The notes beneath the pieces were generated by a model. That model was not told where the DNA came from, made no database searches, and saw nothing but the letters and a program-made list of their open reading frames with translations. The position numbers and the translations under genes were made by a program. A stretch of DNA of 64,000 nucleotides from Clostridium sp. CAG:433 (lineage in GTDB: Bacteria; Bacillota_I; Bacilli_A; RF39; UBA660). The DNA lies in assembly GCA_000433675.1 (NCBI GenBank), contig FR893564.1:52660-116659 (forward strand), given 5' to 3'. The number at the start of each line of letters is the position of its first letter. The first letter of the stretch is position 1. This document shows positions 47,512 through 63,328 of the stretch, piece by piece.

Positions 47512-48033
47512 ATGGCTAATAGTGATTTAAAAAATGTTATTGAGAATGCAAGAAAGGCACAAGGATATTCACAAAGACAATTAGCAAAACAAATAGGATT
47601 AAGTCAAAGTACATATAACGATACAATTAATGGAAAAATAAAAAAAGTTGATGTTGAGATTTTAAGAAAAATAGCAGAAGGCTTAAATCTTTCTTTAGAT
47701 TATTTATTAAAATTTTCTGGTTATGGTGATGTATATAGTTACATGAACGCCGAAAAATATTCAAATAAATCTACAAAAGATTTTGTTGAAATGTTAGACA
47801 AATATGAAAAATTTAAAATGGATATATTAGATTGGGATTATCAAAAAAGACAAAAGGCATTTGAGTTACAAGATTATATAAACAACATAAAAACTGAAAT
47901 AAGAATCATTTCAGCTGGAGGAGTTAGAAGAATGACTGATGAAGAACTTCTTCAAAATTTAGATGGAATGTATGAAATAACTAAGAAAATTGCTAAAAAG
48001 TATGATTATAGCAAATTACCGAAGGATTTATAG
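47512..48033 (+). CDS. XRE-family HTH transcriptional regulator
   Basis: HTH_3 motif SQRQLAKQIGLSQSTYNDTINGK. Confidence 0.7.
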   Translation: MANSDLKNVIENARKAQGYSQRQLAKQIGLSQSTYNDTINGKIKKVDVEILRKIAEGLNLSLDYLLKFSGYGDVYSYMNAEKYSNKSTKDFVEMLDKYEKFKMDILDWDYQKRQKAFELQDYINNIKTEIRIISAGGVRRMTDEELLQNLDGMYEITKKIAKKYDYSKLPKDL

Positions 48034-48044
48034 GAGGGTTAGTA

Positions 48045-48899: not shown

Positions 48900-48915
48900 T
48901 TAAGGAGGTGGCAAT

Positions 48916-49683
48916 ATGTTTAAGAAACCATATTATGAAACAGATGGTTTTAAATTGATAAAAGGAGATTCATTTAAAGAATTAAAAAAGATTGAACCTA
49001 AATCAATAGACATGATTTTTGCAGATCCTCCTTATTTTTTATCTGGAGATGGTATAAGTTGTAGTGCAGGTAAAATGGTAAGTGTAAAAAAAGGTGAATG
49101 GGATGAAAAAATAAATATTGATAAAAAACATAAGTTTAATCGAAACTGGATTAAATTGTGTTACAATATTTTAAAAGATGAAGGAACAATATGGATTAGT
49201 GGAACAATGCATAATATTTACTCAATAGGTATGGCATTGGAACAAGAAGGCTTTAAAATAATAAATAATATAACTTGGAAAAAATTAAATCCACCACCGA
49301 ATATAAGCTGTCGTGCATTTGTTCACTCGACAGAAACAATTTTATGGGCAAAAAAAGATATTAAAAAAGCAAAACATAAATTTAATTATTCCTTGATGAA
49401 AGAGTTAAATGATAATAAACAAATGAAAGATGTTTGGGAGTCATCATTAACTAAACCTAGTGAGAAAAAACAAGGAAAACATCCAACTCAAAAACCTATT
49501 GCCATATTAGAAAGAATAATATTAGCATCTACAGATGAAGGAGATTTAATTTTAGATCCGTTTAATGGAAGTGGAACAACAGGAATTGTAGCGAATAAAT
49601 TAAATAGAAAATATATAGGAATAGAACAAGAAAAAGAATATTTAGATTTAACTATTAGAAGAAAGGAAGAAAATGATGAATAG
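48916..49683 (+). CDS. second N6/N4 DNA methyltransferase (DpnA-like, beta class)
   Basis: IFADPPYFLSGDG motif IV near the N-terminus, …HPTQKPIAILERII…, C-terminal FNGSGTTG (motif I). Confidence 0.8.
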   Translation: MFKKPYYETDGFKLIKGDSFKELKKIEPKSIDMIFADPPYFLSGDGISCSAGKMVSVKKGEWDEKINIDKKHKFNRNWIKLCYNILKDEGTIWISGTMHNIYSIGMALEQEGFKIINNITWKKLNPPPNISCRAFVHSTETILWAKKDIKKAKHKFNYSLMKELNDNKQMKDVWESSLTKPSEKKQGKHPTQKPIAILERIILASTDEGDLILDPFNGSGTTGIVANKLNRKYIGIEQEKEYLDLTIRRKEENDE

Positions 49684-50533
49684 AAATTTTAATGATTGGT
49701 TAAGTAAATTTAAAGCAAGTATTTCAAATTATAGTTATTATGTTGATTTTAACAAGATATATGGAAATGTAGACAAAATAAAAATTGAACTTAATATTTT
49801 AAATTCTTTAATTGGTAGTCAAAATATAGAAGAAGAATTTAGAAATATTATTTTTAAATATCCTGAAACATTGGAGTGTATTCCAGTTTTATTGGCAGTT
49901 AGATCAAATGAAATTTTTGTTAAAGATGAATTTGATGAATATTTATTCAAATTTAATAAAATGGTTTATTCAATTGATGATTATGTAAAATTCATGAAAG
50001 AAACTGGGTTATTTGATTTATTAGAAAATCATTTGATAAATAATTTATATGATTATGTTTTAGGTGTTGAAGTAGGCTTAGATTCAAATGGTAGAAAAAA
50101 TCGTGGTGGACATTTAATGGAAGATTTAGTAGAAAGTTATATTGTAAAAGCTGGATATGAAAAGAATGTTAATTATTTTAAAGAAATGTATTTAAGTGAC
50201 ATTGAAAAAAGATGGGGATTAGATTTATCTGCGATGTCTGGTGATAATACTTCTACAAAAAGATTTGATTTTGTTATTAAAACTGATAATCAGGTATATG
50301 TTATAGAAACTAATTTTTATGCTTCAGGTGGTTCGAAATTAAATGAAACAGCAAGAAGTTATAAAATGTTAGCAGAAGAATCAAAAAAAGTTGGTGGAGT
50401 AACATTTATATGGTTCACAGATGGAAAAGGTTGGAATAGTGCAAGAAAGAATCTTGAGGAAACATTTAATGAATTAGATACTTTATATTCAATAAATGAT
50501 TTGGAAAATGGTGTGTTAAATAATTTGGAGTGA
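49673..50533 (+). CDS. probable DpnII/MboI-like restriction endonuclease
   Basis: Third gene of a two-methylase cassette in the order of S. pneumoniae dpnM-dpnA-dpnB; 286 aa; overlaps upstream gene by 11 nt; no motif recognised by eye. Confidence 0.5.
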   Translation: MMNRNFNDWLSKFKASISNYSYYVDFNKIYGNVDKIKIELNILNSLIGSQNIEEEFRNIIFKYPETLECIPVLLAVRSNEIFVKDEFDEYLFKFNKMVYSIDDYVKFMKETGLFDLLENHLINNLYDYVLGVEVGLDSNGRKNRGGHLMEDLVESYIVKAGYEKNVNYFKEMYLSDIEKRWGLDLSAMSGDNTSTKRFDFVIKTDNQVYVIETNFYASGGSKLNETARSYKMLAEESKKVGGVTFIWFTDGKGWNSARKNLEETFNELDTLYSINDLENGVLNNLE

Positions 50534-50539
50534 TAAGCA

Positions 50540-52297
50540 GTGAATAATAGAATAATTAATAGTTATGTAGAAAATTTTTGTGGACAAAACGATTTTGATT
50601 CAAATAAATTTTTGTTATTTTCTACATATCAAATTTGTAAAAAACATAATTTAGATGAAAATATGTTAATTGATTGTGTTGTAGAAGGTGGAGGAGATGG
50701 TGGATTAGACTCTATTGTTGCATTAGTAGATAAAAAATATATATATTCTTTAGATGAATTTAATGAGTATGCTGAACAAATTAATGAAAACTCAAGAATA
50801 GATTTATACTTTATACAAGCAAAAGAAACAAATGGCATAAAAGAAACAGCATTTATGAAAATTAAAGATGTATTTGAAAAGTTGTTAGTTTCCAACAGTA
50901 TAACAGAAGAATTAAGAATACAATATAATCAAGTGTTAATAGAAAAATTCGAGTTAATAAATGAAATAATTATTAAATCATCTCCTAAAACAAATAATAT
51001 ATATATTAATGTTGCATATGCATATACAGGAAATTTAGATAAAGATAGTATTTCAATAGGAACTAAAAATCAAATTAATTCTATAAAAAAACTAGTTAGC
51101 GATACAACATATATAAATGAAGCAAATATATCCGTTGATATTTTTGATAGTAATAAATTAATTAACATAGCTAATAAAAGCATACAAAAAGATTATATAA
51201 TAAAATATAAAACGATTTTTAAAATGAATTATAGATCAGATAGTGAAAATGGTTTTGTTATGAATATGTCTATAAAGGATTATTATAATTTAATAACACA
51301 AGATAATGAAATTATCGATGTATTATTTGAAGGTAATATTCGTGATTTTGAAGGTCAAACAGTTGAGGTGAATAAAAATATAAAAAACACACTTGAAGAA
51401 GTTTATGATGCAGATTTTTGGTGGCTAAATAACGGCATAACTATGATAGTTGATTCGTATACTCCATTGCCAAATGATAGTGCGAAGGTTGTAAATCCTA
51501 TAATAGTTAATGGACTTCAAACTTCATATACAATATTTAATTATTTTAAAGAAAATATTGATAAGCTAGAAAATGAAGACAGAAACATATTACTTAAAAT
51601 AGTTAATACTGATAGCATAAATATCTCTGATATGATTATATCATCAACAAATAGGCAAAATGCTGTTAAACCAGCACAACTAAAAGCTACAGATCCGATA
51701 CAAAAAGACATAGAACAATTATTGTTGAAAAATGGTATATATTATGAAAGAAGAAAAAATTATTATAAAAACAGAGGAATTGATAAACATAAAATAGTGA
51801 CATTAGAAAACTTAGCTCAATATCTAGAATCAATTTATTATGGTAATTGCAGTGGAGCACGTAATAATCCAACTACATTATTAAAAAGTGAAAAACTTTA
51901 TAACAAATTATTTAATAATAGTATAAATCCTAATATATATACTATAACATCTGAAGTCGCTCTAAAAACATTAGAATGTTTAAGAAAAATCAAAAAAAAT
52001 AATGATGATATTTTTAACAAAAAACATTCTGTTTCATTAGATATATTTAAATTTTATATTATGAGAATGATTGTATTATGTTTATGTGGTAACAACATAA
52101 GTGAAAACTACTTAGAAATAGATTTAGAAAAAATAGATTATGATTTAACAGTAAATATTATTAATAAATTAGAATCTATAGTATCAGATATAAAAGATGA
52201 TAACGATAATATCATTAATATTTCTAAATCAAAAGAATTAGATAATAAAATTAATTCAGAAGATTTGTCTGAAATATGCTTAAAAGTAACTACTTAA
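50540..52297 (+). CDS. AIPR-like abortive-infection protein
   Basis: N-terminal VVEGGGDGGLDSIVAL resembling the AIPR GDGG(I/L)D signature; 585 aa; directly downstream of an RM cassette. Confidence 0.5.
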   Translation: MNNRIINSYVENFCGQNDFDSNKFLLFSTYQICKKHNLDENMLIDCVVEGGGDGGLDSIVALVDKKYIYSLDEFNEYAEQINENSRIDLYFIQAKETNGIKETAFMKIKDVFEKLLVSNSITEELRIQYNQVLIEKFELINEIIIKSSPKTNNIYINVAYAYTGNLDKDSISIGTKNQINSIKKLVSDTTYINEANISVDIFDSNKLINIANKSIQKDYIIKYKTIFKMNYRSDSENGFVMNMSIKDYYNLITQDNEIIDVLFEGNIRDFEGQTVEVNKNIKNTLEEVYDADFWWLNNGITMIVDSYTPLPNDSAKVVNPIIVNGLQTSYTIFNYFKENIDKLENEDRNILLKIVNTDSINISDMIISSTNRQNAVKPAQLKATDPIQKDIEQLLLKNGIYYERRKNYYKNRGIDKHKIVTLENLAQYLESIYYGNCSGARNNPTTLLKSEKLYNKLFNNSINPNIYTITSEVALKTLECLRKIKKNNDDIFNKKHSVSLDIFKFYIMRMIVLCLCGNNISENYLEIDLEKIDYDLTVNIINKLESIVSDIKDDNDNIINISKSKELDNKINSEDLSEICLKVTT

Positions 52298-52351
52298 TAA
52301 CATATATGTATATAATGTCATAATGTCATTAGTTAAAAAATATTAGGAGGT

Positions 52352-53026
52352 TTGGATATGAAAATGAGAAGTCAAATTATAATTGATTTAATTAATAATA
52401 AAATAAATATTACTCAAGCTATGGATACTTTAAAAATATTATTAAATGATATAGACAATCCAGAAATTAAAAATTGGTTGCTAAAAGAAATTGACGGTTA
52501 TAATCAAGATGATGATATTCCAAAATATAGAATTGTTCCAGCAACTATCACTGGAGAATATCTTGCAAGTTATGGAAGGATTCATGCAAAAAAACACCCA
52601 ATACCTATCGATCCACAATATATAGCTGATTGGAATTCAGTAAAAATTTTTGCTGGAATAAATGAAATATACCAATTTTCATTAGCAGAACAAAAAGAAG
52701 ACAGTCATCACTTATCAATATCATTACATCCAGTTTTAGTCAATCAAATAGCAATGATCGATGGCGAAGTGTTAGAAGCACATCAAGATTTATCAATTTA
52801 TGCTTATACTAATATAATAGGAAAATTAAAAGAAATAATACTTGATATTTTATTAAAATTAGAAAAAGAATATGGAAATTTAGATAGCTATTATATTGAA
52901 TTTGAGAATGATGAAAAAGAAAAGCAAACAATAAATTATATTATTAGCATAATAGACAATTCAATTAAATTTGGAGATAAGAATACTATAAAAAATTCTA
53001 ATATTGGTGATGAAAATGAAAATTAA
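52352..53026 (+). CDS. hypothetical protein (possible Abi-associated component)
   Basis: 224 aa; RBS AGGAGG; last protein-sized gene before right att. Confidence 0.4.
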   Translation: MDMKMRSQIIIDLINNKINITQAMDTLKILLNDIDNPEIKNWLLKEIDGYNQDDDIPKYRIVPATITGEYLASYGRIHAKKHPIPIDPQYIADWNSVKIFAGINEIYQFSLAEQKEDSHHLSISLHPVLVNQIAMIDGEVLEAHQDLSIYAYTNIIGKLKEIILDILLKLEKEYGNLDSYYIEFENDEKEKQTINYIISIIDNSIKFGDKNTIKNSNIGDENEN

Positions 53027-53183
53027 AATTGGAAAGAAAAATAAATTTAAAAATGTAAATATGGGTAATAACAATATAATTAACGAAGATAAAAACAATA
53101 AATCAAATATTATCATAGATATAATTGTCGGAATAATAGTTGCAGTTATTGGAGCTATAATTATAAAATTGTTAAAAATATAA
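53016..53183 (+). CDS. small membrane peptide (55 aa), translationally coupled
   Basis: ATG at 53016 overlaps the stop region of the upstream ORF; MKIKIGKKNKFKNVNMGNNNIINEDKNNKSNIIIDIIVGIIVAVIGAIIIKLLKI has a C-terminal TM helix; below the size cutoff of the ORF track. Confidence 0.4.
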   Translation: MKIKIGKKNKFKNVNMGNNNIINEDKNNKSNIIIDIIVGIIVAVIGAIIIKLLKI

Positions 53184-53200
53184 ATAGCTGACAAGTATTT

Positions 53201-53221
53201 CTACCCATCAGCTACCCATCA
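53201..53221 (+). repeat. direct repeat (right att) of element 2
   Basis: CTACCCATCAGCTACCCATCA. Confidence 0.7.
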
Positions 53222-53293
53222 AATTCATGTAAATTTATCAATTTTTGATTAAATTTTATTAAACTTAAAATGAGTTATATGTCGATATTACGT

Positions 53294-53317
53294 GGCTTTT
53301 CAACAAGCCTCTTTTTT
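53294..53317 (+). terminator. rho-independent terminator
   Basis: GGCTT-ttcaaca-AAGCC followed by TCTTTTTT. Confidence 0.6.
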
Positions 53318-53327
53318 AATATAATAG

Positions 53328-53360
53328 CCCCCTGAAGAGAGCGAAAGCTCTCATTTTTTT
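53328..53360 (+). terminator. rho-independent terminator (CCCCCTGAAG-type)
   Basis: CCCCCTGAAG AGAGC-gaa-AGCTCTC ATTTTTTT. Confidence 0.7.
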
Positions 53361-53547
53361 ATTTAATTTATTTGTGAAAAATTGAAATAAATTGTTTTTT
53401 ATAAAAATGACTTTTATAAATTATATTATTTATTTTAGACAAGTTATTGCTGATTTACAAATATTATTATACATTAAAGTCAGAAAGTATATACCTATTA
53501 TGGCTTTGGGAATTATGGTATAATTAATTTGTATTGAAGGTGATAAA

Positions 53548-53994
53548 ATGTTGAATATGTCAAATAGTGAACAAAAAAATGTAAATAGTGAAAATAATAC
53601 ATTAATTATAAATAATAAAAATTATGAAATAGATAAAATAGAAATCTGTGGTAAATACAATATTGAATTAGTAACTAAAAATTCAAATATAACATTATAT
53701 CTAGATTTAAATAAAGACGTTATTGCCTCATTAGTTTTAAATGAAAAAACTAATATTTCTGATAAAATAAGTAAAGACCAAAATATAAAAATAGAAAATA
53801 TTAGTTATACATTTTATATTGAAAATGAATTATATATAACAAAAATAAATGATAATGGGTATAAAATTGAATTATCAATGCCTAATATAGAATTATTAAT
53901 TCCGCCATTTGATGAAATAAATAAATCAAGAAATGATACTAATAAATCATTTTTAAAAAATATTTACTTAAATGTCGTTATTGAATTAAAATAA
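53548..53994 (+). CDS. hypothetical protein
   Basis: 148-aa N/K-rich ORF upstream of the Type IIG RM gene. Confidence 0.35.
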   Translation: MLNMSNSEQKNVNSENNTLIINNKNYEIDKIEICGKYNIELVTKNSNITLYLDLNKDVIASLVLNEKTNISDKISKDQNIKIENISYTFYIENELYITKINDNGYKIELSMPNIELLIPPFDEINKSRNDTNKSFLKNIYLNVVIELK

Positions 53995-54190
53995 AAATAT
54001 AAATAAATCAAAAATTTATACTTGATAATCTTTATGTTCAAAATTTTAAGTGGTATAATAAAACTATACTTTTTTCTTAGAAATATAGTTTTTATATAAA
54101 AATAAAAAGTAGTTGATATAAAGTGAATTTAAGTAACTAAATGTAGATTCATAAAAAATATAAGATAAACAATCAGTTAGGAGTACAGAC

Positions 54191-56926
54191 ATGAACATAT
54201 TAGATTTAATCGATTATTTAAAAAAAATGGGTTATAAATTTCACAATTTAGATACAAATGAACCTTTTTTAAAAATAAATGGAACAAAAATTATTTTTAA
54301 TATAGTTAATAAAAAATATAAAGTAGAGGGTATTTCTGTAGGACATGAAAGAATCCTAGATTTAACAAGGCCTGAAAATTACAGCGTTGTAATGTTTTTG
54401 ATAAAACTATTAAAAAAAGGTTATTCGAAAAATGTAATTTCATTAGAAAAAAGGTGGCAATTAGGACATAATGATAGTGGATCACTTGATGTTATGTTAA
54501 AAAATCCTATTAATAATGATATTTACATGATAGAAATAAAATCTCAATCAGAAATAAATAAATACGTAAATTTAAATAACGAAAAAAAATTAAAACAAGT
54601 TTTTTCTTATGCAATTCAGGAAAAAACAACTAAAATAATATCTTTTTATTCTTATGATTTTTCTGAAAATAAGGATATGTTTTACAATGTATATACAGAA
54701 GATATATTAAAAGAATCCCAAAATGTAGATGACTTTTTTGAAAGATGGAATAAAGTATTTGATAAAAGCGATTATATTTCTAATAACAAAATATTTAATT
54801 CAAGACAATCAGTTAAAAAATATAGTCAATTAGAGAATATTACAAATAATGATACAAAAACCTTATTTAATCAATTTGCGACAATATTAAGATTACATTC
54901 TATTTCTGATAAGCCCAATGCTTTTATTAAGATGATTAATTTGTTTTTGGCTAAAATAAATGATGAAATTACATCTGATAAAAAATTTGAAGTAAAGGAT
55001 AATGCAGGAAATATACATACTTTAAATGGTATGAAGTTCCAATATATTAGGGGTATAGATACTCCAGTATCTTTTATGAAAAGACTTAATGAGTTATATA
55101 AAGAAGGAATGAAAGAATACTTAAATAAAGATGTAATTGATTATAATGATGAAGAAATCGATGATTTATTACCAGACAATGTAGAAAATAGAAAACTTAT
55201 TGTAGAAACATTTGATAATCTAAGACTTAAGAAAAATAATAATTTTACATTTATTGATGTATTTGATGATGAAACATTCTATCTTAATTTTGAGGTTGTA
55301 AAAAGTGTTGTTGAACTTCTTGAAAATTATAGATTTAAGTATGATACGAAACATCAATTTTTAGGAGACTTTTTTGAAGAATTATTAAATACCAGTTTAA
55401 AACAAGAAGCTGGTCAGTTCTTTACACCTTATCCAATTGTTGATTTTATGGTTGATTCATTACCATATGAAAAACTTATTAAGAAGAATGTAGATTTAGG
55501 AAGAATTAATTTTATCCCTTCTGTTATCGATTATGCGTGTGGAGCAGGACACTTTTTAATAAGCAGTATGGCAAAAACACAAGAAATAATTAAAAAAATG
55601 AAAAATGAAAATTATAATTTTAACGAATTACAAACTAAAAAAATAAATGCATATATTGATGATCCATATTCATGGGTAAACAAAAGAAATTGTGTTGGAA
55701 TTGAAAAGGATTACAGACTTGCCAAAACAACTAAAATAGCAACGTTTCTTAATGGAGATGGTAATGCTGAAATAATTAGTGGAGACGGAATTAACAAATT
55801 TAATTCTAAGGATTATGAAAATACAATTTTAAATTCAAGTAAAAATAAAATTGAAAAGTTTGATTTTGTTATATCAAATCCACCATATTCAATAGATGGA
55901 TTTATGAGAAATTTTTCAAAGAATGGAATTACTCCAGAATCAGGCGATTTTTCATTATTAAAAAAATTAAATTATACAGATTCTGCAATAGAAACATTTT
56001 TTGTTGAAAGAACAGAACAACTTTTAGTTAATAATGGATATTGTGCAATTGTATTGCCACAATCTATTCTATCAAATTCAAAATATGAAAATATGAGAAG
56101 ATTCATGTTTAAAAATTTTGAAATAAAAGCTTTAGTTATGACATCAGATATTACTTTTTCAGGAACAACAACATCACCAGTTATATTATTTTTAAAGAAG
56201 ACAAAAGTACCAAATAAGCATTACAAAACATTAGTAGTAGGATCACCAAAATACATGAAACCAACTGGAAGTAAAATGAAAGATCAGGAAATTAAATTTC
56301 TTGGTTATGAATTTAGTACAAATAGGGCAAAGTCAGGAATTACTATAAAAGATAATTCAATATTATCAAAAATATCACCTATAATAAATAATTTTATTTC
56401 TAACGATGAAATAAATATACCTAAAAATTTATCTAATTTAGTGTATAGTAAATATTTTGATGATATATTATTAAATTCTTCTAAAGAATATTGCGGAGAT
56501 ATATATCCAAAATATAATCTTAATGAGGGTAAACCATTATCTAATTATTGCAAGATTAATTGTAGAACAACAGAGGATTTCGATAAAATGCCATCTGATT
56601 ATCTTGAAATAGGGGGCTTATCTACATTACAAACTAGTGAAAAAAAGAAAACAACTAATAGATTCTGCAAAAAAGGTGATATTCTAGTCTCTAGTTTATG
56701 TCCAAAAAGAAATCAAATTAAAATAGCAGATAAAGATTATATGGTTACAACAGCAATACATGTATTATCTGATTTTGAAAGTGAAGAGATAAAAGAAAAA
56801 ATTTATGAAAAAATTAGATCTGATGAAGTTTTAGAACAAATGAATTCTTTACTTGATGGTTTTAAAATCACTTATGCTAAAATTTCAGATGCAAATTTAA
56901 TTAATAATATATTAATTAATATATAA
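54191..56926 (+). CDS. Type IIG restriction-modification enzyme (fused PD-(D/E)xK nuclease plus gamma-class N6-adenine methyltransferase plus target-recognition domain)
   Basis: N-terminal D…EIK (SLDVMLKN…IYMIEIKSQ), GQFFTPYPIVDFMV, VIDYACGAGHFLIS (motif I), FVISNPPYS (motif IV), about 340-aa C-terminal region; 911 aa. Confidence 0.7.
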   Translation: MNILDLIDYLKKMGYKFHNLDTNEPFLKINGTKIIFNIVNKKYKVEGISVGHERILDLTRPENYSVVMFLIKLLKKGYSKNVISLEKRWQLGHNDSGSLDVMLKNPINNDIYMIEIKSQSEINKYVNLNNEKKLKQVFSYAIQEKTTKIISFYSYDFSENKDMFYNVYTEDILKESQNVDDFFERWNKVFDKSDYISNNKIFNSRQSVKKYSQLENITNNDTKTLFNQFATILRLHSISDKPNAFIKMINLFLAKINDEITSDKKFEVKDNAGNIHTLNGMKFQYIRGIDTPVSFMKRLNELYKEGMKEYLNKDVIDYNDEEIDDLLPDNVENRKLIVETFDNLRLKKNNNFTFIDVFDDETFYLNFEVVKSVVELLENYRFKYDTKHQFLGDFFEELLNTSLKQEAGQFFTPYPIVDFMVDSLPYEKLIKKNVDLGRINFIPSVIDYACGAGHFLISSMAKTQEIIKKMKNENYNFNELQTKKINAYIDDPYSWVNKRNCVGIEKDYRLAKTTKIATFLNGDGNAEIISGDGINKFNSKDYENTILNSSKNKIEKFDFVISNPPYSIDGFMRNFSKNGITPESGDFSLLKKLNYTDSAIETFFVERTEQLLVNNGYCAIVLPQSILSNSKYENMRRFMFKNFEIKALVMTSDITFSGTTTSPVILFLKKTKVPNKHYKTLVVGSPKYMKPTGSKMKDQEIKFLGYEFSTNRAKSGITIKDNSILSKISPIINNFISNDEINIPKNLSNLVYSKYFDDILLNSSKEYCGDIYPKYNLNEGKPLSNYCKINCRTTEDFDKMPSDYLEIGGLSTLQTSEKKKTTNRFCKKGDILVSSLCPKRNQIKIADKDYMVTTAIHVLSDFESEEIKEKIYEKIRSDEVLEQMNSLLDGFKITYAKISDANLINNILINI

Positions 56927-56958
56927 AAAATAACTAGTTCTTTTTTGAACTAGTTATT

Positions 56959-57519
56959 TTAATAATCAAATAGTTTACAATTATAGTCAAATAATAAATC
57001 ATTAATAGTAGATATTTTATAAATTTTATTAATAAAACAAAATCTAATTATTAAATCATAACGATTATTCTTTGGTAATGAATACGATGCACTATTTAAA
57101 AGTGTATCAATTTCTTGTTCATTAAGTTCAAGTGATAATCCTAAAAGAATAACAGTTTCTTTACTTGGATGATATTTTTTATCATTTCTTATTTTTGAAA
57201 ATAATCTTCTATCAATATGTACTTTATTATAAACATCACTATCTTTTAAATTTCTATCATCTATCATTTTAAAAAGAGTTGTTTGAAAGTCACTATATTT
57301 GTTTTCATTGTTTTCAATATATTTATCTATACTAGAATCATTTATTTCATTAGTAATATCAATTGATGAAATACTGTAGTATTCATTTTCTTCAAATTCA
57401 TCATTTTTAGATACGTCTTTTATTCTTGTTATAAAGTTTTTAAAAAGTTTTTTTCTGTTACTATTTTTGTATAAATTTTCTTCTAAATATTGTTTAAGTT
57501 CTTCTTTCATATATATCAT
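56959..57519 (-). CDS. hypothetical protein
   Basis: 186-aa ORF convergent with the RM gene; no motif recognised. Confidence 0.4.
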   Translation of the reverse strand: MIYMKEELKQYLEENLYKNSNRKKLFKNFITRIKDVSKNDEFEENEYYSISSIDITNEINDSSIDKYIENNENKYSDFQTTLFKMIDDRNLKDSDVYNKVHIDRRLFSKIRNDKKYHPSKETVILLGLSLELNEQEIDTLLNSASYSLPKNNRYDLIIRFCFINKIYKISTINDLLFDYNCKLFDY

Positions 57520-57626
57520 CCCCTTTCATGAACTATTATACCATATAGTATATATTTGTCGCTTATTTGGCGACCAATTTTAAATTTTATTTTGATAATA
57601 TATTGGTGAAAAGAGGAGTGAGAATA

Positions 57627-58217
57627 ATGAAAAAAGAAGTAACAGATATTGTTTTTTTACTTGATAGAAGCGGTTCAATGTCAGGATTGGAAAATGATAC
57701 CATAAAAAGTTATAATAATTATTTAGAAAGGATGAAAAGTCAAAATGTAAGAGTAACAACAGTATTATTTGATGATAAGTATGAAATGATTACAGAACAA
57801 ACAGATATTAAAAATGTAAAAAAGATGGATAAAAGAACATATTACACAAGAGGAAGTACTGCACTATTAGATGCGATTGGTAAGACTATAAAATACTTAG
57901 ATAATATAAATCCAAAAAAAGTTTTATTTATTATAACAACAGATGGATATGAAAATTCATCTATAGAGTATAGTAAGAATATGATAAAAAAGTTAATTGA
58001 AAGTCATAATAATTGGGAATTTATATTTTTAGGTGCTGATATTGATTCATATACAGAGGCTTGTTCTATAGGTATAAAAGAAAATAGAATTTCAAATTAT
58101 TGTAAATCTAAAAATGGGGTAAAAAAAGTTTTTGATAGGTTAAAAAATTTATCAGAGATGTATTACGAAAGTAATTGCATTTCAGAAGATTGGAATGATG
58201 GATTAGAGGATGATTAA
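57627..58217 (+). CDS. von Willebrand factor A domain protein (TerY-like, about 196 aa)
   Basis: MIDAS motif DIVFLLDRSGSMSG plus downstream T and D (ITTDGYENS); RBS AGAGGAG. Confidence 0.7.
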   Translation: MKKEVTDIVFLLDRSGSMSGLENDTIKSYNNYLERMKSQNVRVTTVLFDDKYEMITEQTDIKNVKKMDKRTYYTRGSTALLDAIGKTIKYLDNINPKKVLFIITTDGYENSSIEYSKNMIKKLIESHNNWEFIFLGADIDSYTEACSIGIKENRISNYCKSKNGVKKVFDRLKNLSEMYYESNCISEDWNDGLEDD

Positions 58218-58360
58218 AATATAAGGAAAAACAAAATCTCAATAAAATGAGATTTTTTTAGTATTTTTATATAATGTAGTAATATTGTAGTAAAATTGTA
58301 GAAATATGTTGACAATGAATTTTTCTGGTGATATATTTAATTCAGGAGGTTGAGAAATTT

Positions 58361-58798
58361 ATGGGTAATGTAAGTGAAAAAATGACAAAAGAAGAATTAT
58401 TGGAGTTATTTAGTAAGTATGATTTAGTTGAGTTAACTGCGATGAATACAGTTTTAAATTATGCAAAAGATGTTGATACAATGGAAGCAGAAACTGTAAT
58501 TAGAAAAGTATTTAATGATGCGGATGATGAAGTTAGTGAAGATTATGGACTTTTTATGCGTCATTATACACCTTCAATGTCTATGATCAATAAAAAATCA
58601 GATTTATTAACTAAGAAAGAGGCAAAATATTTATTAGAATTTGCAAATGATGCTAAAAAATATTTTGAAGATATTAAATTATCTAAACCTGATGCTAATG
58701 TTGAACATGAATTACTTGAACTATACAAAATAACAGATTCATTAAATTCAATAGCATCAAGAAATGTTATAAAATTAAATTTAAGAAAAAAGGAATAA
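58361..58798 (+). CDS. hypothetical protein (146 aa)
   Basis: ATG 58361 with AGGAGG upstream; helical, no motif recognised; 19 nt upstream of the DinJ-NUDIX gene. Confidence 0.45.
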   Translation: MGNVSEKMTKEELLELFSKYDLVELTAMNTVLNYAKDVDTMEAETVIRKVFNDADDEVSEDYGLFMRHYTPSMSMINKKSDLLTKKEAKYLLEFANDAKKYFEDIKLSKPDANVEHELLELYKITDSLNSIASRNVIKLNLRKKE

Positions 58799-58817
58799 TG
58801 TATTGTGAGGTAAAAAA

Positions 58818-59408
58818 ATGGAAAATAAAACAAGCGCTATTAACATACAAGTAGATAGTAATGTAAAAAAAGAAGCAACAGACGTATTAACTGAACTTGG
58901 TTTATCAATGAGTTCTGCAATAAATTTATTTTTAAAACAAGTTGTTAAAAAAAATGGTATTCCATTTGAAATAACTAATGTATCACCTAAGAAAAAAATA
59001 CTAGATGTTGTGTGTGGATTAATTATGAAAGATGGGAAATGCTTAATTGCACAAAGAAAAAAAGAGGATCATTTATATGGTAAATGGGAATTTCCAGGTG
59101 GAAGAAGAGTAGGTCTTGAAGATGAAAAGAAAACTCTTGATAGAGCATTTACTGAAGTACTTGGAATTAATACAAAAATAAATGATTATATTACACATAG
59201 TATATGTGAATATCCAGGTCATATAGTAGACTTAAAATTATATGAATGTGATTATATAAGTGGTGATTTTAAATTAAATATTCATTCAGATTATAAATGG
59301 GTAGCAATTGAAGAACTATTAGATTATGATTTAGCAGATGCAGACGTTATCTTAACTAAATTCTTAATAAAAAAATATATAGAAGATGCTAAAGAAAATA
59401 ATAAATAA
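58818..59408 (+). CDS. RelB/DinJ antitoxin-like domain fused to MutT/NUDIX-like domain
   Basis: N-terminal INIQVDSNVKKEATDVLTELGLSMSSAINLFLKQVV (DinJ/RelB ribbon-helix-helix type); GKWEFPGGRRVGLEDEKKTLDRAFTEVLGI matches the MutT Nudix box but with RAF…EV in place of REL…EE. Confidence 0.55.
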   Translation: MENKTSAINIQVDSNVKKEATDVLTELGLSMSSAINLFLKQVVKKNGIPFEITNVSPKKKILDVVCGLIMKDGKCLIAQRKKEDHLYGKWEFPGGRRVGLEDEKKTLDRAFTEVLGINTKINDYITHSICEYPGHIVDLKLYECDYISGDFKLNIHSDYKWVAIEELLDYDLADADVILTKFLIKKYIEDAKENNK

Positions 59409-59422
59409 AGGAGTGCATAAAA

Positions 59423-59728
59423 ATGGTGGATTTTAGAAAATTACAAAAAGATGTTTATCAAAATAAAGTTGATAAAGGATTTAATACAACAGATGTAAAT
59501 AAGGAGTTTTGTTTAACATACGCAGAACTTGCAGAAGCATATGATGCTTGGCTTAAGAAAAAAGATGATGTTGGCGAAGAACTTGCAGATGTTGTTATAT
59601 TTACAATGGGATTATCAGAAATATTAGGTGTAGACTTAGAAAGTGAAATAATTAATAAAATTAATAAAAACTCTAAAAGAGTTTATAAGACTGTAGATGG
59701 AGTTTTAATGAAAGTAAAATCAGAATAA
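59423..59728 (+). CDS. MazG-like nucleotide pyrophosphohydrolase domain protein (small)
   Basis: 101 aa; LTYAELAEAYDAW…EELADVVIFTMGLSEILGVDL typical MazG/NTP-PPase helices. Confidence 0.55.
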   Translation: MVDFRKLQKDVYQNKVDKGFNTTDVNKEFCLTYAELAEAYDAWLKKKDDVGEELADVVIFTMGLSEILGVDLESEIINKINKNSKRVYKTVDGVLMKVKSE

Positions 59729-59794
59729 TATAAAATAAATTAAACAAAAAAATATAAAATATTAAAATTAGTAGAAGAATAGAGAAAAATTACT

Positions 59795-60406
59795 ATGGAT
59801 GAATTAAAATTTGATAAAATAGTTAAATCTAATTTAGAAGATATTGCAATAATTGAATATGGAATAATTGAAGGAAATAATACAATTGTTTTTATAAAAT
59901 CTGGACAAAATGGTTCAATATATGGTTATAACAATAAATATATTAAAATGGCTAAAAGATTAAATAAAAAATATAAGTGTACAGTAATATGTTCATCAAA
60001 TCCATTTGATGGAAACAATCCTCTTGATAATGCATTTACTGTAATAGAAAAATATACATCAAAGTTTGAAGATTATAAAGTGTATTATTTAGGTTTTTCA
60101 AATGGTGCATTGATAGGGGCATATTTTGGTATAAATTATCCTAAAATAAAAAGAATGTTACTTGTAAATATGCCTTTAATTTATGATATAAATTTAATAA
60201 AAAATAATCTTAATAATTTTAATAATGAAAAAATAACAATTGTATATGGATCACTTGATTATTCTATTAATTCACTTGAAAATATTAAGGATATTAAGTC
60301 AAATAGAATGGATATTAAAGTTGTTCCAAATGAAGATCATTATTTTAGTAAAGATGAAGAAGATTTTTACTCTTTACCTGAAAAATATTTGTTTTATAAA
60401 GAATAA
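59795..60406 (+). CDS. alpha/beta-hydrolase-like protein
   Basis: GFSNG (GxSxG nucleophile elbow) after beta-strand YYLGF; 203 aa. Confidence 0.45.
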   Translation: MDELKFDKIVKSNLEDIAIIEYGIIEGNNTIVFIKSGQNGSIYGYNNKYIKMAKRLNKKYKCTVICSSNPFDGNNPLDNAFTVIEKYTSKFEDYKVYYLGFSNGALIGAYFGINYPKIKRMLLVNMPLIYDINLIKNNLNNFNNEKITIVYGSLDYSINSLENIKDIKSNRMDIKVVPNEDHYFSKDEEDFYSLPEKYLFYKE

Positions 60407-60511
60407 AACTTATGAATATGAAAATAGAACCAAAAATTCTATTTTTTTAATATAAAAAATATATTCCAAAAATATTGTTTAATCATAAACTATATTGGGA
60501 GAGTAATATAT

Positions 60512-61509
60512 ATGAATAACATAAATAAGGATTTTTGTTGTGATGATTTTTCAAAGGCAAAGAAAATACTAGAAGGCGCAAATAGTTGTAAATATTGTTA
60601 TGTATTAGGTCCAACAGGACCACAAGGTGGTCCAGGCCCAATTGGTCCACAAGGAGAAATCGGTCCAAAAGGTGACATGGGTCTTCAAGGACCTAAGGGT
60701 GATAGAGGAGATATTGGTCCAACAGGACCTAAAGGAGAAAATGGACCTACTACAATTACAGTAGAATCAACTTCTTTAGCAGAAGTAACAAATACTGGAA
60801 CCAATAAGGATGTTATTTTAAATTTCAAAATACCAAAAGGCGCAACTGGTGAAATGTGCCCTAAGGGTGAAAAAGGCGATATAGGACCTAGAGGACTTCC
60901 TGGTGAAATAGGTATTAGTCAGGCTATTACAATAGATGGGACAGAAACAATAGAACCAAACGAACTTGCAGAAGTGCAAGATGATTTTGAAAGTAATATT
61001 CATCATTTGACATTCTATATACCAAAAGGAGAAAAGGGTGAAAAGGGTGATCAAGGAGAAGTGGGACCAAGAGGACCCGCAGGACCTGCCCCAGATGTTG
61101 CATATGGTGAAAGATATTTAGATTTAGAACAAGAATTAGTTTTAACAAAGGATCGAGATACAGTAGTTCCTTTAAATTTAGGGGGACCTGCATTTTTACA
61201 TATTTTGATACTGAAAACACTATTGAAATAAAACAAAATGGTTTCTATTTAATATCATATTTCTTTAGTGCATCACCTAGTGAGGACTGTAAGATAACAG
61301 CTATGGTAAAATATAATGATTTATTATTCCAGGCATGTAATGTAACAACTGACATGAAAGCAAATACTATTGGAAATATTACTAATACAATAATAGGAGC
61401 ATTAAATGATGGAGACAAGGTTACATTATGTGTAAGGTCATCAGTAAATACAACATTAACATTTGATGGAAGCACTAGCGCTAATCTAGTATTAGTAAGA
61501 ATTCACTAA
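60512..61509 (+). pseudogene. BclA-like collagen-triple-helix-repeat protein, frameshifted between collagen region and C1q/TNF-like C-terminal domain
   Basis: GPTGPQGGPGPIGPQGEIGPKGDMGLQGPKGDRGDIGPTGPKGENGP and GEKGEKGDQGEVGPRGPAGP repeats in frame A (60512..61231); C-terminal domain (…FDTENTIEIKQNGFYLISYFFSASPSEDCKITAMVKYNDLL…VRIH) continues in the -1 frame to 61509; switch region contains G5 and T5 runs. Confidence 0.5.
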
Positions 61510-61671
61510 TTAAAAGGCTTATATAATGAAATATAAGTCTTCTTTTTTTGCAATTTGATTTTGTATTTTTTTAAGCATATGATTATTGTTTTTATAATAA
61601 TCATAATATGTACCCTTGATTATTTTATTAATTAATGTTATTATAAATACGCTTTTATAAGGGGGATTTTT

Positions 61672-62694
61672 ATGGGAATAATATCTAATTTTGAAGGACA
61701 AAGTCAAATAAGAAATTTATTAAATAATGAGAATTATGATAAAGAAAAAGCGGATCAATTCTTAAAAAATAATGCTAGTATACCTATGTCTTCAGAATTA
61801 TTCTATGATACAGATAGATATATCAGAATGCAACAAAGTAAAATACAAGAAACGGATGCAGTATTTAAGTCCCCAAAATTATCACCAGAATTAAAAAAGG
61901 TTTTAATGTGTGAAAAGTTACCATTTAGAACTAAGACAAAAGATATGATAAGATATAATTTGATACAGGATTATCTAGATCGTGTCCTTTATACAACACA
62001 TTCTTCATGCATATATGATAATATAAAATATTATAATGCTGTTCCTGAAAGAAATATTCAATATGTTAGAGGTTATTTTGAATATAATGGAATAGATCTA
62101 AATAATAAAAAATCAATCGGGGATATATTTTGCAATTATGGTAATCCATATAAAGATCCAGATGGTATAAAACGCGATTTTGAAAAAATTGATAACCTTA
62201 TTGAAGATAAAAGAAATAGTGCATTAGGAAGATATGGAGAACTTGAAATATATAATATGTTAAAAGAAAATTTAAAACTAGAAGAAGAAATAAAGTGGGT
62301 TTCCAAAGATGTTGGAGATTTATTTGGCTATGATATTATAATTAGTAATGTAATGACAGGTGAAGTTAAATTAATCGAAGTTAAGACATCCTATAATAAT
62401 GGAGGCGAATTAACTTTATCTTTAAATGAATATAATAAACTACAAGAATCAATTAAAAATGGTATTGAATATGAAATGTACAAAGTTGAATATGTGAATG
62501 GTGAAAGAAAATTATTTAAAGTAACACATGATCATGATGAATATTATACTGTAGAAAATTTAATTACTGGCATCAAGAGTAATATGTTCTTTGATCAAAG
62601 TAGAATTAATCCAGAAAAAAAAGGAATATGCTTAAAACTTTCTGATTTGCCTTTAGTAGCATACTCTAATTATGTACCTAGAAAGGAACTATAA
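61672..62694 (+). CDS. hypothetical protein with C-terminal DUF3883-like (PD-(D/E)xK-fold) domain
   Basis: …KWVSKDVGDLFGYDIIISNVMTGEVKLIEVKTS… (GYDI…IEVK signature); paralog of the ORF starting at 63341. Confidence 0.45.
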   Translation: MGIISNFEGQSQIRNLLNNENYDKEKADQFLKNNASIPMSSELFYDTDRYIRMQQSKIQETDAVFKSPKLSPELKKVLMCEKLPFRTKTKDMIRYNLIQDYLDRVLYTTHSSCIYDNIKYYNAVPERNIQYVRGYFEYNGIDLNNKKSIGDIFCNYGNPYKDPDGIKRDFEKIDNLIEDKRNSALGRYGELEIYNMLKENLKLEEEIKWVSKDVGDLFGYDIIISNVMTGEVKLIEVKTSYNNGGELTLSLNEYNKLQESIKNGIEYEMYKVEYVNGERKLFKVTHDHDEYYTVENLITGIKSNMFFDQSRINPEKKGICLKLSDLPLVAYSNYVPRKEL

Positions 62695-62695
62695 T

Positions 62696-63328
62696 ATGGA
62701 AAAACAAGTATTATATCATATACATAAAATCGAGGGTAAGGATAGTACGGGTAAGTTTTGGAAAGAAAATAAAGAGATAAAAGTGGATGATAAGTTTAAA
62801 AATGGAATGCTTAAAAGATATAATGAATTTACAACTAAAACTTCAATTTTAGATGTAGATGGCAATATAATTGATAAGAATATACATGATTATTTAGCAA
62901 GAGTTTTATTTAAATTAAATAGTGGTAGAACTTTTTCAAAACAAGAACTAGAAGAAATTTTAAAATTATCATATCGTGCTTCCTATTATGGAAATATGTT
63001 TAAAAGAGAAACAGCATTAGAAAATTATAGAAAAGATAATGTTAGTACATTGCCCAGTAGATTACATACAATTTATTTAACTGATGAAAAAGGAATAGAT
63101 TATTGGGTAAATGCTTTACAAACAGATAATTATACACTATATAGAGTAGAAGCAAGTGGTGAAATATTTAAAACAAATGAACAATTAATACCAGAAGAGA
63201 TGTTAAGTTATAAAGATGTTTATGAAAGTGCATATAATTATTGGCATCCAAACTTTAAACATGTACCAGATTATACAAATGAATATTTGGTAAAAGGAAA
63301 AGTAAAAGTACTTGAAAAAATAAAATAG
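62696..63328 (+). CDS. hypothetical protein
   Basis: ATG 62696 just after stop of the upstream gene; no motif recognised. Confidence 0.4.
   Translation: MEKQVLYHIHKIEGKDSTGKFWKENKEIKVDDKFKNGMLKRYNEFTTKTSILDVDGNIIDKNIHDYLARVLFKLNSGRTFSKQELEEILKLSYRASYYGNMFKRETALENYRKDNVSTLPSRLHTIYLTDEKGIDYWVNALQTDNYTLYRVEASGEIFKTNEQLIPEEMLSYKDVYESAYNYWHPNFKHVPDYTNEYLVKGKVKVLEKIK

What the first reader, a model, noticed from the sequence alone, without database searches (positions are those of the whole stretch)
57627..60406. Uncharacterised accessory cluster: TerY-like vWA, a 146-aa unknown, DinJ/RelB-domain::degenerate-NUDIX fusion, MazG-like, and an alpha/beta hydrolase
Five same-strand genes have short intergenic gaps (19 nt and 14 nt around the fusion gene). 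The first is a ~196-aa vWA protein with an intact MIDAS motif, the size of TerY proteins found in defence and stress islands. The second is a 146-aa helical unknown. The third has a textbook DinJ/RelB antitoxin N-terminus fused to a MutT-type NUDIX domain. In that domain the Nudix box reads GKWEFPGG…RAFTEVLGI, so two of the three REUXEE glutamates appear replaced. This points to a binding or sensor role, or to altered chemistry, rather than canonical hydrolysis. The fourth is a small MazG-type NTP pyrophosphohydrolase and the fifth is a GxSxG hydrolase. An antitoxin DNA-binding domain fused to a NUDIX domain, next to a second nucleotide-pool enzyme, is not an arrangement I can assign to any described toxin-antitoxin or phage-defence system. 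The unknown upstream gene could be the cognate toxin. Alternatively NUDIX/MazG could reverse or degrade a nucleotide or ADP-ribose signal. The cluster sits in an accessory tract between a Type IIG RM gene and a collagen-like gene, so it is a good candidate for a novel TA or defence module.
Basis: partly seen in the sequence, partly recalled or inferred. Interest (0 to 1): 0.7.

Follow-up and report, generated by a model that had tools for sequence, protein, structure and literature searches.

The report
Pseudo-Nudix repressor operon with MazG enzyme
A small conserved operon in common gut bacteria pairs a DNA-binding protein, whose fused Nudix domain has lost its catalytic residues and probably acts as a nucleotide sensor, with a MazG-type nucleotide-cleaning enzyme and an unknown helical protein; it looks like a self-regulated nucleotide-pool module, not a toxin-antitoxin or five-gene defence system.

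Summary
The five ORFs exist as described, and the RelB/DinJ::NUDIX fusion is real: it occurs in hundreds of independent assemblies. Its Nudix box reads R-A-F-x-E-V. None of 147 distinct fusion sequences keeps the first catalytic Glu.

The five genes are not one unit. Across about 12 related gut Bacilli lineages only three travel together:
- the fusion (RN);
- the MazG-like gene (M);
- the 145-aa helical unknown (U).

U lies before RN here but after M in most other species. Some lineages add a canonical Nudix hydrolase and a dCMP-type deaminase.

Every operon is preceded by an invariant triple direct repeat (TGTAG, 11-bp phase) abutting the -35 box. In the window it sits at 58275-58301, upstream of U. 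In two lineages the same operator-promoter drives M alone.

The vWA gene is cut off by a terminator. The 203-aa gene is species-specific.

Best reading: RN is a ribbon-helix-helix repressor with a pseudo-Nudix ligand sensor, analogous to NrtR, that controls a nucleotide (probably pyrimidine dNTP) sanitation operon. No RelE-like toxin gene is present, the antitoxin tail is missing, and there is no consistent defence context. U's role is unknown. This is a new variant of a known kind, of moderate interest.

The parts
58275..58301 (+). Candidate operator: three direct repeats TGTAGTAATAT / TGTAGTAAAAT / TGTAG in 11-bp phase, ending 7 nt before the -35 box.
   Evidence: The TGTAG cores are invariant in 12 lineages whose DNA upstream of the first repeat cannot be aligned. 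The motif occurs once per fusion locus in 403 kb and always precedes the first gene of the operon. It occurs once in the 64-kb window. In a metagenome-wide scan, every hit that is followed by TTGAC precedes this operon.
58309..58337 (+). Operon promoter: TTGACA, 17-nt spacer, TATATT, with an extended -10 TG. The Shine-Dalgarno sequence AGGAGG is at 58344-58349.
   Evidence: It is the best promoter match in 56800-61800, at 11 of 12 positions plus the TG. The -35, the extended -10 and the Shine-Dalgarno sequence are conserved across lineages.
58361..58798 (+). U: a 145-aa acidic, all-helical protein of an orphan family. It is the first gene of the operon in this species.
   Evidence: It is homologous to the gene found downstream of the MazG-like gene in other lineages (41% identity over 97 aa to the L001 copy). 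A family HMM detects it in nearly all operons. No Pfam family, name or fold match was found. The AlphaFold2 model has pLDDT 74.
58818..59408 (+). RN: a RelB/DinJ ribbon-helix-helix domain (residues ~5-58) fused to a MutT/NudG-type Nudix domain (~59-190) with a degenerate Nudix box (RAFTEVLGI).
   Evidence: In 147 distinct fusion sequences the REU position is Ala or Val and never Glu. By contrast, 129 of 138 non-fusion relatives have RE..EE. Purifying selection is strong: amino-acid identity is 83-96% while third-codon-position identity is 56-82%.
59423..59728 (+). M: a 101-aa MazG-like all-alpha NTP pyrophosphohydrolase, the likely regulated effector.
   Evidence: It hits PF12643 at 9.4e-7 and phrog_3301 'pyrophosphatase' at 2.4e-12. 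The ExxE...EExxD residues are invariant. It lies immediately downstream of RN in nearly all fusion loci. In L065, L122 and L093 the operator-promoter drives it alone.
59795..60406 (+). 203-aa protein with a GFSNG motif. It is probably co-transcribed here but is found only in this species and is not part of the conserved module.
   Evidence: No hairpin lies between the MazG-like gene and this gene, and a terminator-like hairpin follows it. It is present only in conspecific loci. Pfam hits are sub-threshold.
60420..60449 (+). AT-rich hairpin plus U-run, the likely terminator of the transcription unit.
   Evidence: -5.9 kcal/mol, z -4.4, and 0 of 200 shuffles fold as well.
58233..58259 (+). AT-rich hairpin plus U7, the likely terminator of the vWA gene. 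It marks the left boundary of the operon.
   Evidence: -7.8 kcal/mol, z -3.9, and 0 of 200 shuffles fold as well.
57627..58217 (+). vWA protein with a MIDAS motif. It is a separate unit, paired divergently with the 186-aa gene at 56959-57519 (- strand).
   Evidence: It is absent next to the operon in all other lineages except L025, where the pair lies 1.3 kb downstream.

Best explanation
The unit is a self-regulated nucleotide-pool operon, not a five-gene cluster. Its conserved parts are an operator, a promoter, RN, the MazG-like gene and U.

Shown:
- RN carries a RelB/DinJ-type ribbon-helix-helix DNA-binding domain.
- RN's toxin-binding tail has been replaced by a MutT/NudG-type Nudix domain that has lost two of the three Nudix-box catalytic glutamates.
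- The whole protein is nevertheless under strong purifying selection.

Inferred:
- RN dimers bind cooperatively to the three phased TGTAG repeats that abut the -35 box and control the operon promoter. Repression is the more likely mode.
- The pseudo-Nudix domain binds a nucleotide without hydrolysing it and changes DNA binding. The operon is then switched when that nucleotide accumulates.
- The regulated output is the MazG-like NTP pyrophosphohydrolase, which keeps its metal-binding residues. In some lineages a canonical Nudix hydrolase and a dCMP-type deaminase are added.
- Together these enzymes would convert an unwanted or surplus (d)NTP to the monophosphate and onward. The likely substrate is a pyrimidine such as dCTP or a modified dCTP.

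U is a conserved but fast-evolving acidic helical partner. Its role is not established; it may modulate RN or the MazG-like enzyme.

The logic parallels NrtR, in which a perturbed Nudix domain serves as the effector sensor of a transcription factor.
For: 1. Linkage. RN and the MazG-like gene are adjacent in every full-length fusion locus from about 12 lineages. U is adjacent in all but one, despite changes in gene order (U-RN-M, RN-M-U, U-RN-M-U, RN-Nudix-M-U, RN-Nudix-U-M-U).
2. Operator. An invariant triple TGTAG repeat in 11-bp phase lies directly upstream of the -35 box in all lineages. It sits before whichever gene comes first. The flanking DNA cannot be aligned. A metagenome-wide pattern scan finds it with a promoter only at this operon.
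3. Regulated output. In L065, L122 and L093 the same operator-promoter drives the MazG-like gene alone.
4. Pseudo-enzyme. None of 147 fusion sequences has Glu at the REU position, and the box degenerates further (G to N/K/D/H) in some lineages, several of which also carry a canonical Nudix in the operon. The nearest standalone relatives (48% identity) have a canonical REILEE box.
5. Constraint. RN shows 83-96% amino-acid identity against 56-82% third-position identity.
6. Pyrimidine hint. The best NCBIfam and PDB matches of the Nudix domain are NudG, a pyrimidine (d)NTP / CTP pyrophosphohydrolase (2.7e-24; 2rrk 1.5e-17). The MazG-like protein has weak PDB matches to dCTP pyrophosphatase 1 (E 0.063). 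A PF00383 deaminase follows the operon's Nudix gene after 8-9 nt in L060 and L091.
7. Precedent. NrtR proteins with perturbed Nudix signatures bind ADP-ribose, lack catalysis and regulate transcription (PMC2330246).
Against: - No experiment exists. DNA binding by RN, the sign of regulation and the ligand are all inferred.
- The repeats lie upstream of the -35 box rather than over it, so activation is not excluded.
- The AlphaFold2 model of RN was unusable (pLDDT 53), so retention of the ligand pocket was judged from sequence only.
- U is unexplained.
- The deaminase and canonical Nudix genes occur in only a minority of lineages.
- The MazG-like matches to dCTPases are not significant.
- The Nudix domain also matches PADLOC's candidate defence family PDC-S07 (1.7e-34).
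- In this species the operon lies beside a defence island.
Confidence: 0.55

Rival explanations
1. A novel toxin-antitoxin-like or anti-phage module. RN would be an antitoxin-derived regulator holding a harmful effector in check. The effector would be either the MazG-like enzyme depleting nucleotides or U. A phage-derived nucleotide sensed by the pseudo-Nudix domain would release it, causing nucleotide depletion, destruction of phage-modified dNTPs or growth arrest.
For: The DNA-binding domain is of the RelB/DinJ antitoxin type. The Nudix domain matches the PADLOC candidate defence family PDC-S07 at 1.7e-34. In this species the operon lies downstream of a strain-variable island carrying DpnII RM, AIPR, AbiTii and a type IIG-like enzyme. 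U evolves fast, as proteins at a host-parasite interface often do. Some lineages add a deaminase, which recalls nucleotide-depletion defences (from general knowledge).
Against: The toxin-binding tail of RelB is absent and no RelE/YafQ/ParE-type gene is present. In other lineages the operon sits among housekeeping or envelope genes. It appears fixed in the species rather than accessory: the identical RN is indexed in 1322 blocks. No copies were found in the phage, plasmid or IMG/VR collections. U is duplicated or lost without loss of RN and the MazG-like gene, and the MazG-like gene occurs alone behind the operator with no RN at the locus. Both are hard to reconcile with an unneutralised toxin. 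PDC-S07 is itself an untested candidate.
Confidence: 0.17
2. RN is a bifunctional enzyme-repressor. Its atypical Nudix box would still catalyse hydrolysis of a special substrate using other acidic residues, for example the conserved E101-D102-E103 loop. RN would then both clean the pool and autoregulate.
For: The x5-E and the middle Glu of the box (E113) are mostly retained. An invariant acidic stretch, L-E-D-E, precedes the Nudix helix. The domain is under strong constraint. Some NrtR members with intact signatures are active enzymes (PMC2330246).
Against: The residues equivalent to MutT E53 and E57 are hydrophobic in essentially all members. The box degenerates further (the Gly is lost, and E113 is Asp in one lineage) in several lineages that also carry a canonical Nudix paralogue. 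In NrtR, perturbed signatures go with barely detectable activity.
Confidence: 0.12
3. One reading: all five genes (vWA, U, RN, MazG-like, 203-aa hydrolase) form one functional accessory system.
For: All five are on the same strand and close together. The block is conserved in four strains of this species. The vWA/186-aa pair recurs 1.3 kb from the operon in one other lineage, L025. The 203-aa gene is probably co-transcribed here.
Against: A terminator and a separate promoter-operator lie between the vWA gene and U. The vWA gene is absent from the neighbourhood in 10 of the 11 other lineages examined, and the 203-aa gene from all of them.
Confidence: 0.05

Closest known systems
NrtR (Nudix-related transcriptional regulators; PMC2330246)
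   Same: A Nudix domain with a perturbed catalytic signature is fused to a DNA-binding domain. The gene sits beside the metabolic genes it controls. An operator recurs upstream of the target operon. The proposed logic is the same: a metabolite binds the dead Nudix domain and modulates DNA binding.
   Different: NrtR has an N-terminal ADP-ribose-pyrophosphatase-type Nudix domain and a C-terminal winged-helix domain. RN has an N-terminal RelB/DinJ ribbon-helix-helix domain and a C-terminal MutT/NudG-type Nudix domain. RN's operator is a triple direct repeat rather than the NrtR motif. Its targets are NTP pyrophosphohydrolases rather than NAD genes. RN is therefore an independent, convergent fusion.
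RelB/DinJ type II antitoxins
   Same: The N-terminal 58 residues are a typical DinJ/RelB ribbon-helix-helix (TIGR02384 above its cut-off; PDB DinJ 9lew at 4.2e-7). The nearest standalone relatives are 64-66% identical. The protein is probably an autoregulator.
   Different: The C-terminal toxin-neutralising segment is replaced by a Nudix domain. There is no RelE/YafQ/ParE-type partner gene. The putative operator is made of direct repeats.
MutT/NudG Nudix hydrolases (E. coli NudG, PDB 2rrk)
   Same: The match covers the whole domain, including GKWEFPGG, the Arg of the box and the C-terminal L-A-x-A-D motif.
   Different: The box reads R-A-F-x-E-V where the canonical form is R-E-U-x-E-E. The domain is probably non-catalytic and is fused to a DNA-binding domain.
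Small MazG-like house-cleaning NTP pyrophosphohydrolases (PF12643; SSO3215 1vmg; DCTPP1/RS21-C6; phage MazZ)
   Same: It is an all-alpha protein of about 100 aa with invariant ExxE...EExxD metal-binding motifs.
   Different: Similarity to characterised members is only weak (best PDB E-value 1e-3). The substrate is unknown. Here it is placed under a dedicated Nudix-derived regulator.
PADLOC PDC-S07 (candidate single-gene defence Nudix)
   Same: The Nudix domain of RN matches the model strongly (116 bits).
   Different: PDC-S07 is a standalone protein of about 135 aa and is an unvalidated candidate. RN is a fusion with a degenerate box in a conserved operon.

Membership tests
Type II antitoxin RelB/DinJ | N-terminal ribbon-helix-helix DNA-binding domain | tested here: met
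   Pfam RelB 6.8e-14 at residues 6-61. TIGR02384 scores 70.8 bits against a cut-off of 45.65. PDB DinJ 9lew matches at 4.2e-7.
Type II antitoxin RelB/DinJ | C-terminal toxin-binding/neutralising segment | tested here: not met
   The profile match ends at position 57 of 82. Residues 59-196 are a Nudix domain.
Type II antitoxin RelB/DinJ | Adjacent cognate RelE/YafQ/ParE-type toxin gene | tested here: not met
   No such ORF is found on either strand in 57500-60500. The neighbours are U (no family) and the MazG-like gene. The same holds in about 12 lineages.
Type II antitoxin RelB/DinJ | Neutralises a toxic partner | not testable with these tools
   This needs toxicity and rescue assays.
Nudix hydrolase (MutT/NudG type) | Nudix fold domain | tested here: met
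   NUDIX_4 8.8e-13, NF007834 2.7e-24 (below its equivalog cut-off) and PDB 2rrk 1.5e-17 over residues 59-181.
Nudix hydrolase (MutT/NudG type) | Catalytic Nudix box GX5EX7REUXEEXGU | tested here: not met
   The box reads RAFTEVLGI. None of 147 distinct fusion sequences has Glu after the Arg, and the second Glu of the EE pair is Val, Ile or Leu in nearly all of them.
Nudix hydrolase (MutT/NudG type) | Pyrophosphohydrolase activity | not testable with these tools
   This needs an enzyme assay.
NrtR family | Nudix-like effector domain with a perturbed signature fused to a DNA-binding domain | tested here: met
   This criterion is architectural only.
NrtR family | C-terminal winged-helix DNA-binding domain and an ADPR-pyrophosphatase-type Nudix domain | tested here: not met
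   The DNA-binding domain is an N-terminal ribbon-helix-helix. The closest Nudix relatives are NudG and MutT. No winged-helix family was hit.
NrtR family | Effector-modulated binding to operators upstream of target genes | tested here: inconclusive
   A conserved candidate operator was found. Binding and the effector were not tested.
MazG-like all-alpha NTP pyrophosphohydrolase (PF12643) | Family HMM match above the curated cut-off | tested here: met
   29.4 bits against a cut-off of 27. phrog_3301 'pyrophosphatase' matches at 2.4e-12.
MazG-like all-alpha NTP pyrophosphohydrolase (PF12643) | Metal-binding ExxE ... ExxD motifs | tested here: met
   E35, E38, E52, E53 and D56 are invariant in 10 lineages. 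They align to SSO3215.
PADLOC PDC-S07 candidate defence system | HMM match and standalone single-gene Nudix of ~135 aa | tested here: not met
   The HMM match is met (1.7e-34). However, the protein is a 196-aa fusion inside a conserved operon. The defence phenotype of PDC-S07 is itself not established.
TerY-type vWA (first gene) | vWA domain with a MIDAS motif, in a ter operon or a TerY-phosphatase-kinase context | tested here: not met
   The VWA domain and the DxSxS motif are present. No NCBIfam name was returned. No ter, phosphatase or kinase neighbours are present; the partner is a 186-aa protein with a sub-threshold HTH hit.
alpha/beta hydrolase (fifth gene) | Family HMM match and a Ser-Asp-His triad | tested here: inconclusive
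   A GFSNG motif is present, but Hydrolase_4 scores 15.2 bits and Abhydrolase_1 scores 13.9 bits, both below their cut-offs. No PDB match was found.

The most novel reading that the evidence does not exclude
The operon is an inducible anti-phage nucleotide filter. The pseudo-Nudix domain of RN would detect a phage-made non-canonical pyrimidine dNTP, such as a 5-modified dCTP or dUTP. RN would then de-repress the MazG-like enzyme, plus the Nudix hydrolase and deaminase where present, to destroy that precursor or drain dCTP. The fast-evolving acidic U protein would act as the interface with phage counter-measures.
Probability: 0.1. Interest if true: 0.75.

Novelty: new variant of a known kind. 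Interest (0 to 1): 0.45.

Why it matters
If correct, this is a second, independently evolved case after NrtR of a dead Nudix enzyme turned into the sensor of a transcription factor. Here it is built on an antitoxin-type ribbon-helix-helix domain and coupled to nucleotide-cleaning enzymes.

It comes with a sharply defined operator, so the hypothesis can be tested directly by gel shifts with candidate nucleotides.

It also flags a likely annotation error. NCBI names these proteins 'type II toxin-antitoxin system RelB/DinJ family antitoxin', although they lack both the toxin-binding tail and a toxin partner gene.

The organism group (Clostridium sp. CAG:433 and relatives) is very common in human and animal gut metagenomes. 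A clade-wide regulated nucleotide-sanitation operon, with its orphan partner U, is therefore relevant to the physiology of these uncultured, small-genome Bacilli.

Tried and rejected
- Megablast of 57000-61500 against the phage and plasmid collections found no match.
- An IMG/VR scan with the fusion alignment found only standalone or unrelated Nudix domains. The apparent two-domain hit L043 is a large high-GC phage protein.
- AlphaFold2 of the fusion from a shallow alignment (all members >80% identical) gave pLDDT 53, which is unusable, so no fold search was run on it.
- A profile-profile test of whether U is a degenerate MazG-like domain gave probability 0.2%, so that idea was rejected.
- A profile search for U relatives in 5.8 billion proteins found only 158 clusters, all in this clade and none with a name or Pfam family.
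- At 50% clustering of 1.84 billion representatives, only one full-length RelB::Nudix cluster exists. Several longer or N-terminally extended Nudix relatives from that search were read and none carries a RelB N-terminus.
- Literature searches for Nudix with RHH, RelB, DinJ or MazG found nothing on this fusion.
- U as a toxin and the five-gene unit were both considered and rejected on the comparative evidence given above.


Full report
**Observation**

The window has about 24% G+C and looks chromosomal. The 145-aa protein is identical to 'unknown [Clostridium sp. CAG:433]'.

Domain scans give the following.
- The first gene is a generic VWA protein with DRSGS MIDAS residues.
- The 145-aa protein has no family in Pfam, NCBIfam, PADLOC or PHROGs.
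- The third protein has a RelB/DinJ ribbon-helix-helix domain at residues 5-61 and a MutT/NudG-type Nudix domain at residues 59-186.
- The fourth protein is a MazG-like protein just above Pfam's cut-off.
- The 203-aa protein has only sub-threshold alpha/beta-hydrolase hits around GFSNG.

The residue-by-residue alignment to NudG (PDB 2rrk) shows the box RELREELGI replaced by RAFTEVLGI. This confirms the loss of the residues equivalent to MutT E53 and E57.

**The fusion is real, narrow and constrained**

The identical protein is indexed in 1322 blocks of the assembly collection, and more than 500 clusters at 90% identity are full length. An exhaustive search of 1.84 billion representatives at 50% identity finds only one full-length two-domain cluster. 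The next-best hits are standalone Nudix proteins (48% identity, canonical REILEE box) and standalone RelB proteins (64-66% identity).

Among all sequences gathered, 147 distinct fusion proteins never have Glu after the box Arg. In contrast, 129 of 138 non-fusion relatives have RE..EE.

Between lineages RN keeps 83-96% amino-acid identity, while third codon positions are only 56-82% identical. The degenerate domain is therefore maintained by selection and is not decaying.

**What travels together**

I compared neighbourhoods from four metagenomic look-ups, 14 GTDB species loci and 75 metagenome loci.
- The MazG-like gene (M) lies immediately after RN in nearly all lineages.
- The gene downstream of M elsewhere (138-290 aa, no Pfam) is homologous to the window's upstream 145-aa gene U, at 41% identity over 97 aa.
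- The longer forms of that gene contain two tandem units.
- Gene order varies: U-RN-M, RN-M-U, U-RN-M-U, RN-Nudix-M-U and RN-Nudix-U-M-U.
- Most conspecific strains carry a second U copy between M and the 203-aa gene. The window strain lacks it.
- The vWA gene appears near the operon in only one other lineage, L025.
- The 203-aa gene appears only in this species.
- A sub-clade adds a canonical Nudix hydrolase with an REIKEE box. In L060 and L091 a PF00383 dCMP/cytidine deaminase follows it after 8-9 nt.

**Operator and transcription unit**

Aligning the DNA upstream of the first gene of each operon shows three invariant TGTAG cores in 11-bp phase. They are followed by TTGAC, an extended -10 box and a GAGG Shine-Dalgarno sequence. 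Upstream of the first repeat the sequences are unrelated.

In the window the repeats lie at 58275-58301, and the promoter at 58309-58337 is the best in the region. They precede U, not RN. This fixes the U start at the ATG at 58361.

The motif occurs once per fusion locus in 403 kb and once in the window. A pattern scan of the metagenome collection returned 75 loci. Every hit followed by a -35 box precedes this operon, and the remaining hits are unrelated microsatellite-like arrays.

In L065, L122 and L093 the same operator-promoter drives M alone, with no RN or U at the locus. This points to M as the regulated output.

Hairpins with U-runs lie after the vWA gene (58233-58259) and after the 203-aa gene (60420-60449). 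There is none between M and the 203-aa gene. The local transcription unit is therefore probably U-RN-M-203aa, and the vWA gene is separate.

**Mechanism**

Shown:
- the domain architecture;
- the loss of the catalytic glutamates;
- retention of the MazG-like metal-binding residues E35, E38, E52, E53 and D56;
- the conserved linkage of the three genes;
- the conserved operator-promoter.

Inferred:
- RN binds the repeats through its ribbon-helix-helix domain. Autoregulation by RHH antitoxins, and RHH binding to tandem repeats, are established behaviours of this fold.
- The pseudo-Nudix domain binds a nucleotide and modulates that binding. NrtR proteins do this with ADP-ribose (PMC2330246).

A pyrimidine dNTP is the best guess for the ligand and substrate, for three reasons.
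- The closest characterised Nudix relative is NudG.
- The MazG-like protein weakly resembles dCTP pyrophosphatases.
- A dCMP-type deaminase joins the operon in two lineages.

This part is weakly supported.

U is acidic (pI 4.3-5.1), helical and evolves fast. It matches no known fold or family. Its role is open.

**Comparison with known systems**

RN works like NrtR but is not a member of that family. It has a different DNA-binding fold, the opposite domain order and a different Nudix subfamily.

RN is annotated as a RelB/DinJ antitoxin but fails two defining features. The toxin-binding tail is missing, and there is no RelE-type partner gene.

RN fails the catalytic signature of Nudix hydrolases. 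It matches PADLOC's PDC-S07 model, but that is an untested standalone candidate.

The defence reading has limited support. In this species the operon sits downstream of a strain-variable island carrying DpnII RM, AIPR, AbiTii and a type IIG-like enzyme. Elsewhere it sits among housekeeping or envelope genes. It is absent from the phage, plasmid and viral collections.

No paper describing the fusion was found.

**Verdict**

The five-gene unit, the toxin role for the unknown gene and the TA/defence label are not supported.

The real feature is a conserved operator-RN-MazG-U operon. It is a new variant of the 'Nudix-derived regulator' theme, of moderate interest. It has a clear experimental path (operator, protein, candidate ligands) and one unexplained component, U.

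Noticed in passing
window 47512-56926: A defence island lies between RecG (39821-41779) and the finding. It carries an HTH_3 protein, two DNA methyltransferases, a DpnII endonuclease, AIPR (50540-52297), AbiTii (52352-53026), a 148-aa unknown and a 911-aa N6_Mtase type IIG-like enzyme. The cargo upstream of the 911-aa gene differs between strains L012-L015 (DpnII+AAA_22, Fic, or TnpV+Nudix).
   Followed up: partly
window 56959-58217; L025 8225-9419: A divergently transcribed pair consists of a 186-aa protein (sub-threshold Xre-type HTH) and a 196-aa vWA protein (phrog_7371, 4e-46). The pair recurs in L025, 1.3 kb downstream of that species' RN-M-U operon. It is probably its own small module of unknown function.
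   Followed up: partly
window 59729-59794 versus L067, L069, L074, L078, L089, L090, L098, L113 and L114: Most conspecific strains carry a second U gene (137 aa, 53% identical to the first) between the MazG-like gene and the 203-aa gene. The window strain has only a 66-nt gap there, so the copy number of U is polymorphic within the species.
   Followed up: partly
L065, L122 and L093 (metagenome loci): The same triple-repeat operator and promoter drive a MazG-like gene alone, followed by a GT2 glycosyltransferase. No RN or U lies within several kb. RN may act in trans or may have been lost.
   Followed up: partly
L060 and L091 (also L073, L092, L106, L107 and L126): Operon variants carry an extra canonical Nudix hydrolase (REIKEE box). 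In L060 and L091 a dCMP/cytidine deaminase (PF00383) follows it after 8-9 nt. In these lineages the RN Nudix box is degraded further, with the GI pair becoming NI, KI, DI or HI.
   Followed up: partly
window 60512-61231: A collagen-like gene varies in length between strains (239, 320 or 332 aa). The longer forms carry a weak BclA_C domain hit. This suggests repeat-number variation in a surface protein.
   Followed up: no
window 61672-63328 and beyond: A NOV_C protein (340 aa) overlaps a DUF2441 protein and is followed in conspecific loci by a second NOV_C paralogue (349 aa, 39% identical). A NOV_C gene also lies near the operon in L004. This is a possible nuclease-type module.
   Followed up: no
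P0128 and P0130: The closest non-fusion relatives of the RN Nudix domain include proteins of about 420 aa. In these a canonical Nudix domain is fused to a long C-terminal region that ends in an HNH-like Cys/His motif. This is a different Nudix fusion and may be restriction-like.
   Followed up: no
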